Part shown: piece by piece, positions 9,782 to 22,773 of the stretch
Layout of the letters: each line of letters begins with the position of its first letter
How positions within the stretch are numbered: the first letter of the stretch is position 1
Assembly: GCA_003144275.1 (NCBI GenBank)
Contig: NJBF01000005.1
Span: forward strand, 30,001 to 62,000
DNA from: Candidatus Heimdallarchaeota archaeon B3_Heim
GTDB taxonomy: Archaea; Asgardarchaeota; Heimdallarchaeia; Hodarchaeales; Hodarchaeaceae
DNA: 32,000 nt
Direction: 5' to 3'
Notes under the pieces: model-generated
What the model saw: the letters and a program-made list of their open reading frames with translations, nothing else
Told to the model about the DNA's origin: nothing
Database searches by the model: none
Made by a program: the position numbers and the translations under genes

Positions 9782-9878
9782 GGGCCGATGGTGAAGCTGG
9801 TATCACGCCGCCTTCGCAAGGCGGAGATCGCAAAAATGCGACTGTATCCCCCGAGTTCAAATCTCGGTCGGTCCACCA
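9782..9878 (+). tRNA. trnA: tRNA-Ala(CGC) with a 21-nt variable-loop intron (45/46: 9827-9847) and encoded CCA
   Basis: Acceptor GGGCCGA/TCGGTCC with the G3:U70 Ala determinant, anticodon arm CCGCC-TT-CGC-AA-GGCGG, T arm CCGAG-TTCAAAT-CTCGG, then A-CCA. The intron has central helix GCGG/CTGT, two 3-nt bulges and a TCGCA/TGCGA hairpin. Confidence 0.94.
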
Positions 9879-11527: not shown

Positions 11528-11573
11528 AGAGATTTGAATAAATAGTCTTGGATGATTGATAGAGGAATATAAT

Positions 11574-12026
11574 ATGTCTAAAAAAGAAAATGAACAAGAA
11601 GAAACAAAAGGGTCATCAATACCGTGGATTCCAGGCTTTAAAAGGCCAACAATTGATTTTAAAAGGCCAACATTCGAACTTCCCTATGAGGCACCTCATA
11701 AATACATTATATTCATTATCGTTCTTTCTACTATATTTATATTGGCAGGAGGTATATATAATATAGCAGAAAATCCTTTACCTATGGGACAAACATCAAC
11801 TGCGCTCGTACCTGTATTCCAATCGCCGAGTGAACAATTTCTGATAGAGTCTCTGATTGCTGCTCTTTTTTTTGGCCTTGGAGCAGGTGGCCTTTTCATG
11901 ATCAGGTACTCAACACGTTTTGCATATGATGCTAGGACATCCATCACCCTCTTAATCCTTGGAATTACTCTTACCATCGTCGCTGCTGGTGGGACTGTAA
12001 TTATGTACGACTTCAAAACAAGCTAG
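11574..12026 (+). CDS. Oligosaccharyltransferase subunit OSTC/DC2-like (OST3/OST6 family), eukaryotic signature protein
   Basis: About 150 aa with 3 TM helices. AGGIYNIAENPLPMG and EQFLIESLIAALFFGLGAGGLFMI parallel human DC2 TGGIIYDVIVEPPSVG and [24 protein letters not shown] (recalled). ATG 11574 follows GAGG. Confidence 0.85.
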   Translation: MSKKENEQEETKGSSIPWIPGFKRPTIDFKRPTFELPYEAPHKYIIFIIVLSTIFILAGGIYNIAENPLPMGQTSTALVPVFQSPSEQFLIESLIAALFFGLGAGGLFMIRYSTRFAYDARTSITLLILGITLTIVAAGGTVIMYDFKTS

Positions 12027-12047
12027 AAAATTCTAATCGTCCGTTTT

Positions 12048-12231
12048 GCCGGGGTTTCTGTCTCTAACGAGGTTCATTCAGATCCTCAACGACCCGATAG
12101 CCAAGCGGACGGGATTATAATTAATAATGCCCTGTATTACGGCGCTGGCCTTGAGACCTCAATATTCAAAAATTCAGGTTAGATAGCCAGTGTACATTAT
12201 GTACTCGAGGGTTCAAATCCCTCCCCCGGCG
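12048..12231 (+). tRNA. trnS: tRNA-Ser(TGA) with three introns (8/9: 12056-12098; 20a/20b: 12111-12137; 37/38: 12156-12184)
   Basis: Acceptor GCCGGGG/CCCCGGC-G (G73), D stem GCC/GGC, anticodon stem CTGGC/GCCAG with CT-TGA-G, long variable arm GTACA/TGTAC, T arm GAGGG-TTCAAAT-CCCTC. Each insert has BHB geometry. Confidence 0.93.
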
Positions 12232-12397
12232 TTTTAATATGAATATGGAGGGAATATTCATCCTAGCATCGATCACTCATAATTTAGATACTACTTGGAC
12301 GATAAAGGGAAGCTTCTAAGGAGGTAGAACGAAAACCAATAATCCTTTTAACCCCAAATTATTCACCCCAACTGAACATTCTAGCAACAAGAATTGC

Positions 12398-12733
12398 ATG
12401 GATATACTGGAGAAAGAAATTTTGGTATCCGTAGCGCGTATTCGGTTAATGAGCACTGATGTTGAACAATTAGACGGCATTTGTAAAGAAATGAAGAGGA
12501 TTGCAGACAAGTCTGGGGTAAAAATGAGAGGCCCAATCCCTTTACCAACAAAGAAATTACGATTGCCCGTTAGAAAATCGCCCAGTGGACAAGGAACAGC
12601 GACTTGGGAGGATTATGAACTTCGTATACATAAAAGGTTGATCGATATAGATGCCGATGACCGGACTATGAGACAGATAATCCGATTAAATGTTTCTCGC
12701 ACTATTTTTGTTGAAATTGAATTACGTACTTAA
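12398..12733 (+). CDS. rps10: 30S ribosomal protein S10 (uS10)
   Basis: ARIRLMST, GPIPLPTKKL...RKSPSGQGTATWEDYELRIHKRLID. The true start may be about 8 codons downstream. Confidence 0.97.
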   Translation: MDILEKEILVSVARIRLMSTDVEQLDGICKEMKRIADKSGVKMRGPIPLPTKKLRLPVRKSPSGQGTATWEDYELRIHKRLIDIDADDRTMRQIIRLNVSRTIFVEIELRT

Positions 12734-22638: not shown

Positions 22639-22773
22639 GGGCCCATGGCTTAGCCTGGTTAAAGCGCTCGGCGTTCAGAAGTTTTTCTGGACGGGTGATG
22701 CTGATAACGCAACTGGTTTCCCAGGCTGCCGATAGAAACCGAGAGATCCCCGGTTCAAATCCGGGTGGGCCCA
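22639..22773 (+). tRNA. trnI: tRNA-Ile(GAT) with two introns (30/31: 22671-22699; 37/38: 22707-22737)
   Basis: Acceptor GGGCCCA/TGGGCCC-A, D arm GCTT-AGCCTGGTTA-AAGC, spliced anticodon arm CTCGG-CT-GAT-AA-CCGAG, variable loop AGATC, T arm CCCGG-TTCAAAT-CCGGG. The first intron forms a strict BHB (CGCT/GGTG). Confidence 0.94.

What the first reader, a model, noticed from the sequence alone, without database searches (positions are those of the whole stretch)
12048..12101. tRNA-Ser intron at position 8/9 with a textbook BHB built from acceptor-stem and D-stem bases
The 43-nt insert 12056-12098 forms a strict BHB. The outer helix is G1C2/G10C11, the central helix is C3G4G5G6/CCCG, the bulges are G7-T8|t and a-t|A9, and the inner helix is TC/GA. 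The precursor must unfold the acceptor stem to be spliced. I do not recall 8/9 among reported archaeal intron positions, so it may be a new site.
Basis: partly seen in the sequence, partly recalled or inferred. Interest (0 to 1): 0.78.

Follow-up and report, generated by a model that had tools for sequence, protein, structure and literature searches.

The report
Leader-assisted 8/9 intron in tRNA-Ser
The serine tRNA gene of this Asgard (Hodarchaeales) archaeon really is cut right after its eighth base by a short protein-spliced intron, conserved across its genus; the RNA just upstream of the gene seems to help it fold for splicing, but it is a new example of a known kind of intron, not a new kind.

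Summary
Observation confirmed. Window 12048-12231 (+) encodes the only recognisable tRNA-Ser(UGA) of a Hodarchaeales (Asgard) MAG. It has three inserts: 8/9, D-loop 20a/20b and 37/38. Removing them gives an 85-nt tRNA-Ser that ARAGORN accepts.

Random inserts do so at this boundary about 0.4% of the time. Fourteen congeners carry a 36-49 nt insert at the same point, with compensatory changes in the inner helix and G-C/G-U changes in the central helix. Seven gene copies lack the insert and read GGGGU-AGCC straight through, which fixes the junction.

New here: leader bases -2 to -10 pair with exon 2 (A13-C20a) and extend the 2-bp outer helix to about 11 bp. All 15 intron-bearing copies have this block, against 3 of 7 intron-less copies. 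It narrows the energy gap to the acceptor-stem fold by about 8 kcal/mol. This suggests splicing of a self-contained 5' domain before RNase P acts.

The novelty claim is weakened. A published table (Valentin-Alvarado 2024, Suppl. Data 4) already lists a Freyarchaeia tRNA-Thr intron starting at nucleotide 9. This scan has also noted leader-built BHBs for 3/4, 4/5 and 7/8 introns on other DNA. No RNA evidence for the junction was obtained.

The parts
12037..12046 (+). 5' leader strand (-11 to -2) that pairs with exon 2 and the first two bases of intron 2 (12103-12112). It extends the outer helix of the intron-1 BHB across a single U(-1).C12 mismatch.
   Evidence: The block is conserved in all 15 intron-bearing copies. 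The -5/16 pair changes G-C to A-U, with a G.U intermediate. 9 of 9 pairs occur in 6e-5 of window 12-mers.
12048..12055 (+). Exon 1: G1-U8. G1C2 form the outer helix h, C3-G6 the 5' strand of central helix H, and G7 U8 the first two bases of the 5' bulge.
12056..12098 (+). Intron 1 (43 nt) at position 8/9. U56 completes the 5' bulge; U57C58/G91A92 form inner helix h'; an internal hairpin lies at 12069-12087; C93-G96 form the 3' strand of H; A97 U98 begin the 3' bulge.
   Evidence: It is absent from seven orthologous copies that read GGGGU-AGCC.
12099..12110 (+). Exon 2: A9-C20a (12 nt). A9 is the third base of the 3' bulge, G10C11 pair with C2G1, and A13-C20a pair with the leader.
12111..12137 (+). 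Intron 2 (27 nt) in the D-loop (20a/20b). The motif is relaxed HBh': the central helix has two G.U pairs and there is no outer helix. Its central helix uses G15-G18, which are also claimed by the leader helix.
   Evidence: Present in every orthologue examined.
12138..12155 (+). Exon 3: U20b to G37 (rest of the D-arm, 5' anticodon stem, anticodon UGA at 12152-12154).
12156..12184 (+). Intron 3 (29 nt) at the canonical 37/38 position. The central helix has one U.U mismatch; the outer helix is the 5-bp anticodon stem; the inner helix is 3 bp.
   Evidence: Sequence. Present in every orthologue.
12185..12231 (+). Exon 4: A38 to G73 (3' anticodon stem, long variable arm, T-arm, 3' acceptor strand, discriminator G73).
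12232..12235 (+). T4 run directly after G73, a likely archaeal transcription stop. CCA is not encoded.
   Evidence: Sequence. Its role as a stop is an inference.

Best explanation
This is a functional tRNA-Ser(UGA) gene of a Hodarchaeales (Asgard) archaeon, with three protein-spliced introns. The first, between U8 and A9, is a genuine bulge-helix-bulge intron. In the precursor the 5' acceptor strand (G1-G6) does not pair with the 3' acceptor strand. Instead G1C2 pair with G10C11, C3-G6 pair with the 3' end of the intron, and the two splice sites lie in 3-nt bulges four base pairs apart. The weak 2-bp outer helix is lengthened to about 11 bp because the 5' leader (-2 to -10) is complementary to exon 2. 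So leader, exon 1, intron 1 and exon 2 (about 76 nt) form a self-contained hairpin-like splicing domain. This domain can fold as soon as it is transcribed, roughly 120 nt before the competing 3' acceptor strand is made. The genome's EndA, which has two paralogous subunits and is probably the broad-specificity (alpha-beta)2 type, cuts after the second base of each bulge, and RtcB joins U8 to A9. The leader helix must then open so the acceptor and D stems can form and RNase P can remove the leader. It follows that intron-1 splicing precedes 5' maturation, and probably precedes intron-2 splicing, whose central helix needs the same G15-G18. Shown: the motif, its conservation and covariation, the intron-less alleles, the presence of the enzymes, and the energetics. 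Inferred: actual cleavage and ligation, the order of events, and the helper role of the leader (I put that role at about 0.6). The confidence given here is for the core claim, a real EndA-spliced intron at 8/9.
For: The spliced product is a canonical tRNA-Ser(tga). A strict hBHBh' sits exactly at the exon boundary, with a chance rate of 0.4%. Fourteen congeners plus the window carry a 36-49 nt insert at the same point, and H is intact in 14 of the 15 copies. On alignment A1, 91.2% of cells pair, against 28-40% when partners are slid. There are 19 doubly-changed cells, 4 of 5 h' pairs show compensatory change, and 0 of 500 shuffles reach the score. Seven copies with no insert read GCCGGGGU-AGCC. 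The leader is complementary in 15 of 15 intron-bearing copies and 3 of 7 intron-less copies (Fisher p=0.005, not corrected for relatedness). The BHB fold lies on average 3.7 kcal/mol above the acceptor-stem fold with the leader and 11.8 kcal/mol above it without, over 13 orthologues (window values). There are two EndA paralogs, the 182-aa one closest to crenarchaeal catalytic alpha subunits (3P1Z_B, E=8.5e-43), and RtcB is present. BLAST of the locus against its own genome finds no second tRNA-Ser(UGA).
Against: There is no RNA evidence. No read or contig from this organism spans the spliced junction, and the one RNA-library record on the locus (run X4, 12110-12260) is unspliced for introns 2 and 3. 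In the window itself h and h' are only 2 bp each. With the transcript ending at the T4 run, the thermodynamic minimum is the acceptor-stem fold, by 0-4 kcal/mol, so the BHB fold depends on kinetics or on the enzyme. The leader block persists in three intron-less copies (G009, G014, G017), so it may have another role or simply be inherited. The -5/16 compensatory change may trace to a single event in one clade. The assembly is 94% complete, so a second tRNA-Ser(UGA) cannot be excluded.
Confidence: 0.85

Rival explanations
1. The 8/9 intron is real and EndA-spliced, but the leader-exon 2 complementarity is not a splicing aid. It would instead be a conserved promoter-proximal or initiation element, or a relic kept by descent. 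In that case the 2-bp outer helix plus the enzyme would be enough for splicing.
For: Three intron-less copies (G009, G014, G017) keep the block. The tRNA starts only 21 nt after the upstream stop codon, so transcription signals must lie close by. The covariation in this helix amounts to few independent events. Strict BHBs with 2-bp flanking helices are accepted substrates according to the literature (PMC4090602).
Against: The block is complementary to exon 2 in the exact register that continues helix h. The double change at -5/16 keeps pairing. 9 of 9 pairs occur in 6e-5 of window 12-mers. Four intron-less copies have lost the block altogether. It supplies about 8 kcal/mol, which is close to what is needed to offset the acceptor stem.
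Confidence: 0.25
2. The splice is not at 8/9 but at 7/8 or 9/10, because the boundary bases repeat (U8|U...U|A9).
For: In the window, an intron drawn as 12055-12097 gives the same mature sequence. In G005 the intron begins with A, so a 9/10 placement would give the same product there.
Against: In nine orthologues the intron ends in A or G, so a 7/8 cut would replace the universally conserved U8 with a purine. A 9/10 cut would give U9 in 14 of the 15 copies, whereas every intron-less allele has A9. The BHB geometry, with a cut after the second base of each 3-nt bulge, gives 8/9 in every copy.
Confidence: 0.04
3. The gene is a decaying pseudogene and the insert is never removed.
For: One tandem copy in G012 that carries the 8/9 insert has lost its 3' acceptor strand and looks dead. 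No spliced RNA was seen.
Against: The cloverleaf, G73, the anticodon loop and all three BHBs are kept over 14 species, with compensatory change. It is the only tRNA-Ser(UGA) found in the genome.
Confidence: 0.03

Closest known systems
Non-canonical BHB introns of archaeal tRNA genes (Thermoproteales and others; positions 3/4, 20/21, 22/23, 25/26, 29/30, 45/46, 53/54, 56/57, 59/60 as listed in PMC4090602)
   Same: Short protein-spliced insert bounded by an hBHBh' motif. It co-occurs with a canonical 37/38 intron and another non-canonical one. The host encodes a two-subunit EndA with a crenarchaeal-type catalytic subunit, plus RtcB.
   Different: The position lies between U8 and A9, which the reviews I could read do not name. 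The lineage is Hodarchaeales (Asgard). The outer helix is continued by the leader pairing with D-arm and D-loop bases.
[quoted passage not shown] 2024, PMC11291895; preprint 10.64898/2026.10.13.758758)
   Same: Multi-intron Asgard tRNA genes that annotators miss, with presence/absence variation between relatives. Supplementary Data 4 of the 2024 paper lists a Freyarchaeia tRNA-Thr(CGT) intron starting at nucleotide 9, the same 8/9 site.
   Different: [quoted passage not shown] They do not discuss 8/9 or any role of the leader. I could not check the Freyarchaeia case at sequence level.
Split and permuted tRNA genes (Nanoarchaeum equitans, Caldivirga, Thermofilum, Cyanidioschyzon)
   Same: Sequence outside the mature tRNA (leader or trailer) supplies a long helix next to the BHB, so that EndA sees a stable substrate.
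   Different: Here all exons lie on one 184-nt stretch and the intron is continuous (cis). The leader pairs with an exon, not with another leader or trailer.
Leader-built BHBs of 3/4, 4/5 and 7/8 introns noted earlier in this scan (DPANN and Asgard genomes; unchecked AI notes)
   Same: The first intron is so close to the 5' end that the splice motif needs help from the leader, which implies splicing before RNase P.
   Different: Some of those notes describe a spare copy of the 5' acceptor strand in the leader. I found no such copy here. Instead the leader is complementary to exon 2.

Membership tests
Archaeal BHB (EndA/RtcB-spliced) tRNA intron | Two 3-nt bulges on opposite strands separated by a 4-bp helix, with the splice sites after the second bulge base | tested here: met
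   H is 4/4 in the window and intact in 14 of 15 copies. The bulges are GU|u and au|A.
Archaeal BHB (EndA/RtcB-spliced) tRNA intron | Flanking helices h and h' of at least 2 bp (strict hBHBh') | tested here: met
   h = G1-C11 and C2-G10, invariant, continued by 9-10 leader pairs. h' is 2 bp in the window and 2-8 bp in orthologues, with compensatory changes.
Archaeal BHB (EndA/RtcB-spliced) tRNA intron | Removal restores a canonical tRNA | tested here: met
   ARAGORN calls tRNA-Ser(tga) on the spliced 85-mer. Natural intron-less alleles show the same junction.
Archaeal BHB (EndA/RtcB-spliced) tRNA intron | Host encodes the splicing endonuclease and RtcB ligase | tested here: met
   Two PF01974/PF02778 proteins and RtcB at 560 bits.
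Archaeal BHB (EndA/RtcB-spliced) tRNA intron | Cleavage and ligation actually occur (spliced RNA, circular intron) | tested here: inconclusive
   Four metatranscriptome runs were laid on the locus. No contig from this organism covers intron 1 and no joint was reported.
Split (trans-spliced) tRNA gene | Exons on separate transcription units that pair through leader and trailer | tested here: not met
   All four exons lie in order on one strand within 184 nt.
Self-splicing group I or group II intron | Ribozyme core of hundreds of nucleotides | tested here: not met
   The insert is 43 nt. Rfam finds nothing at the locus at gathering thresholds.
   PMC11291895 Supplementary Data 4: Freyarchaeia tRNA 32, Thr CGT, begins at 1545409 (minus strand) and its intron 1 runs 1545401-1545376, an offset of 8. 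This was read from the table only and not checked on sequence.

The most novel reading that the evidence does not exclude
Leader, exon 1, intron 1 and exon 2 form an autonomous, co-transcriptionally folding splicing domain. The 5' leader acts as a built-in chaperone strand: it pairs with the D-arm exon, offsets the loss of the acceptor stem, and enforces a processing order of intron 1, then RNase P, then intron 2. If this holds generally for introns next to the 5' end in Asgard and DPANN archaea, it would be an undescribed rule explaining how introns can persist at sites that destroy the tRNA core fold.
Probability: 0.45. Interest if true: 0.55.

Novelty: new member of a known kind. Interest (0 to 1): 0.4.

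Why it matters
U8 and A9 lie at the hinge between the acceptor and D stems, and they make tertiary contacts that hold the L-shape together. An intron there means the precursor cannot look like a tRNA at all, so recognition must rest entirely on the BHB. The locus gives a clean natural experiment. Within one genus the same gene occurs with two, three or four introns, and the 8/9 intron correlates with a complementary leader. That makes two open questions directly testable: how archaeal pre-tRNAs with core-disrupting introns fold, and in what order end-trimming and splicing occur. It also adds a well-supported example showing that Hodarchaeales, the Asgard group placed closest to eukaryotes, carry multi-intron tRNA genes that standard tRNA finders miss.

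Tried and rejected
1. The first collection scan used a 19-base gapped pattern. It returned only chance hits in GC-rich bacteria and was discarded. A tighter pattern gave the 19 named Hodarchaeota/Heimdallarchaeota records.

2. RNA evidence. Only small-share metatranscriptome holders were found. No contig of this organism covers intron 1 and no joint was reported, so nothing can be concluded about splicing. A 1,398-nt contig from a relative in run X2 (flagged 'probably DNA') reads leader-GCCGGGG-U-AGCC without intron 1 but with intron 2. I take it as another intron-less allele, not a splicing intermediate.

3. I looked for a spare copy of the 5' acceptor strand in the leader, as earlier scan notes describe for 7/8 introns. 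None is visible in the upstream sequence read.

4. My first reading, that the minimum-energy fold of the precursor is the BHB fold, did not hold when the transcript was ended at the T4 run. The two folds are about isoenergetic.

5. Sugahara 2008, Fujishima 2010, Marck & Grosjean 2003 and Tocchini-Valentini 2011 are not held, so the classic position catalogues could not be read.

6. The covariance model of the 5' domain found nothing in 61 genomes from 17 other genera of the class. That model is specific to this tRNA-Ser sequence and the search ran with strict filters, so this means only 'not found in those searched'.

7. The upstream-ORF tree is too weakly supported to count gains and losses. 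The well-supported branches force only one change.

Full report
THE OBSERVATION. The window lies on contig C88 of a 3.95-Mb, 103-contig assembly with 36% G+C. At 12048-12231 (+) a G+C-rich tRNA-like sequence is broken by A+T-rich inserts. ARAGORN and Rfam (gathering thresholds) find the neighbouring intron-bearing tRNAs but miss this gene. Removing 12056-12098, 12111-12137 and 12156-12184 leaves 85 nt. ARAGORN folds this as tRNA-Ser(tga), with a 7-bp G-C-rich acceptor stem, a 3-bp class II D-stem, anticodon loop CUUGAGA, a long variable arm and G73.

The same unconstrained scan also returns four other 'strict' motifs in 200 nt. So the motif alone proves little. The informative point is that it falls exactly on the boundary required by the tRNA. 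Only about 0.4% of shuffled introns or window 43-mers do so there.

WHO CARRIES IT. Twenty congeners have a homologue. A specific pattern scan gives their public names: Candidatus Hodarchaeota and Heimdallarchaeota MAGs, including Ca. Hodarchaeum mangrovi FT_5_011 and the closed genomes CP070665 and CP070695. The organism is therefore an Asgard archaeon of the Hodarchaeales.

Fifteen gene copies (the window plus 14 congeners) have GCCGGGGU, then 36-49 nt, then AGCCAAG. The central helix is intact in 14 of the 15; the exception is G005, with one G.A. Seven copies read straight through as GCCGGGGU-AGCC. These natural intron-less alleles fix the mature junction. In nine orthologues the intron ends in A or G, so a 7/8 placement would destroy U8. 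A 9/10 placement would give U9 where all intron-less alleles have A9. So 8/9 is the only consistent reading.

On a 15-sequence alignment, 91.2% of cells pair in the proposed register, against 28-40% when partners are slid by 1-3 columns. There are 19 doubly-changed cells, four of the five inner-helix pairs show compensatory change, the four central pairs vary only G-C to G-U on the intron side, and 0 of 500 shuffles reach the observed covariation score.

Earlier notes of this scan on other genomes prompted me to look at the leader. In every intron-bearing copy the bases -2 to -10 (consensus CCAUCCGUUUU before G1) are complementary to exon 2, that is A13 to C20a. After a single U(-1).C12 mismatch, the 2-bp outer helix therefore continues for 8-10 more pairs. 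The pair -5/16 is G-C in twelve copies, A-U in two and G.U in one. The pair -4/15 is U.G or C-G. The pair -9/20a is G-C in the window and A-U in two copies. Nine of nine pairs occur in 6e-5 of window 12-mers.

Four intron-less copies have unrelated leaders, while three (G009, G014, G017) keep the block. That makes 15 of 15 against 3 of 7 (Fisher p=0.005, not corrected for relatedness). I saw no spare copy of the 5' acceptor strand of the kind earlier notes describe.

ENERGETICS. The 78-nt 5' domain folds at -27.2 kcal/mol. The fold contains the leader helix, h, H and the A-U-A 3' bulge. For the whole precursor the result depends on the 3' end chosen. With 9 nt of trailer the minimum is the leader/BHB fold at -63.1. 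Ending at the T4 run, the minimum is the acceptor-stem fold at -62.9, with the BHB fold at -59.1. Without the leader the BHB fold costs 12.7 kcal/mol more than the acceptor-stem fold.

Over 13 orthologues the BHB fold lies on average 3.7 kcal/mol above the acceptor-stem fold with an 18-nt leader, and 11.8 above it without. The leader therefore contributes about 8 kcal/mol, with a range of 4.9-12.1. The leader nearly cancels the cost of not forming the acceptor stem. Since the 5' domain is complete about 120 nt before the 3' acceptor strand is transcribed, kinetic folding should favour it.

MACHINERY. The genome encodes two EndA-family proteins. The 182-aa one is closest to the catalytic alpha subunits of the crenarchaeal (alpha-beta)2 enzymes (A. 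pernix 3P1Z_B, E=8.5e-43). The 215-aa one is more divergent. This agrees with the report that Asgard archaea have the (alpha-beta)2 type with the L1 loop (PMC5829648). RtcB is present.

MOST LIKELY MECHANISM. The nascent transcript folds leader, exon 1, intron 1 and exon 2 into a BHB-bearing hairpin. EndA cuts at 12055/12056 and 12098/12099, and RtcB joins U8 to A9. The leader helix then gives way to the acceptor and D stems, and RNase P trims the leader. The central helix of intron 2 uses G15-G18, which the leader helix also claims, so intron 2 is probably cut later. Cleavage, ligation and the order of events are inferences.

EVOLUTION WITHIN THE GENUS. The gene exists in several forms:
- twelve genes have the 8/9, D-loop and 37/38 introns;
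- two (G006 = CP070665, and G002) have those three plus a 29-nt T-loop intron, making four in all;
- six lack the 8/9 intron but have the T-loop intron;
- one (G010) has only the two core introns;
- one tandem copy in G012 carries the 8/9 intron but has lost its 3' acceptor strand.

A weakly supported tree of the syntenic upstream ORF places the intron-less copies in three positions. G009 and G017 are nested among the 49-nt-intron genes and still carry the leader block, which suggests a recent precise loss. A covariance model of the 5' domain finds it only in this genus among 83 genomes of the class. This means 'not found in those searched', not 'absent'. In the window's own genome no other T-arm-anchored tRNA gene has an insert right after nucleotide 8.

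WHAT IS ALREADY KNOWN. Reviews list many non-canonical positions and, 4 the extreme case, but 8/9 is not among those named (PMC4090602). Multi-intron Asgard tRNA genes were reported in 2024 (PMC11291895). A motif-free census appeared in October 2026 (10.64898/2026.10.13.758758). [quoted passage not shown]

In Supplementary Data 4 of the 2024 paper, Freyarchaeia tRNA 32 (Thr CGT) begins at 1545409 on the minus strand, and its first intron runs 1545401-1545376. That is an offset of 8, so the intron lies between nucleotides 8 and 9. All other first introns in the parts of the table I read start at nucleotide 14 or later. I could not inspect that sequence. So 8/9 has been tabulated once, without comment. 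In the papers I could read, leader or trailer pairing next to a BHB is described for split and permuted tRNAs but not for cis-introns. This scan has, however, noted leader-built BHBs for 3/4, 4/5 and 7/8 introns on other DNA (unchecked AI notes).

RNA DATA. One search found only small-share metatranscriptome holders. When laid on 11700-12500, they gave no joint and no cover of intron 1 from this organism. This says nothing either way about splicing.

VERDICT. It is a new, well-documented member of the known class of non-canonical BHB introns, at a rarely recorded site. Its accessory leader helix is the most interesting part and deserves a bench test. Interest is moderate.

Noticed in passing
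L016 (G006 = CP070665.1) and L015 (G002); also L014, L017, L019, L021, L175 and the second copy in L020: The same tRNA-Ser(UGA) gene carries a 29-32 nt intron inside the T-loop in eight copies. Two of them (G006, G002) also keep the 8/9 intron and therefore have four introns. The six others lack the 8/9 intron.
   Followed up: partly
L020 (G012, JAEOTY010000322.1), reverse strand, two copies about 190 nt apart: There is a tandem pair of tRNA-Ser(UGA) genes. The upstream copy has the 8/9 intron, an altered exon 1 (GCUGGGAU) and no matching 3' acceptor strand, so it looks like a pseudogene. The downstream copy lacks the 8/9 intron, has the T-loop intron and looks intact.
   Followed up: partly
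window 12098-12156, contig of run X2: A 1,398-nt contig from a relative, in a library labelled metatranscriptomic but flagged 'probably DNA', joins the leader plus GCCGGGG directly to U-AGCC. It has no intron 1 but keeps intron 2. It is most likely another intron-less allele, though a partly spliced, leader-bearing precursor cannot be excluded.
   Followed up: no
window 11556-12047: The tRNA starts only 21 nt after the stop codon of a syntenic 156-aa ORF with a hydrophobic C-terminus (...MYDFKTS). The tRNA promoter must therefore overlap the end of that coding sequence, or the tRNA is co-transcribed with it.
   Followed up: no
window 9782-9878 and 22639-22773: Two further intron-bearing tRNA genes. 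tRNA-Ala(CGC) has an insert in the variable region. A second tRNA has a 66-nt insert in the anticodon arm, which ARAGORN miscalls as Ser(aga).
   Followed up: no
G000 contigs C10:37765-37873 and C80:40049-40151 (outside the window): ARAGORN labels these intron-bearing genes tRNA-Pyl(cta) and tRNA-Stop(tta). Given how often it misplaces introns in this genome, these are probably artefacts, but I did not check them.
   Followed up: no
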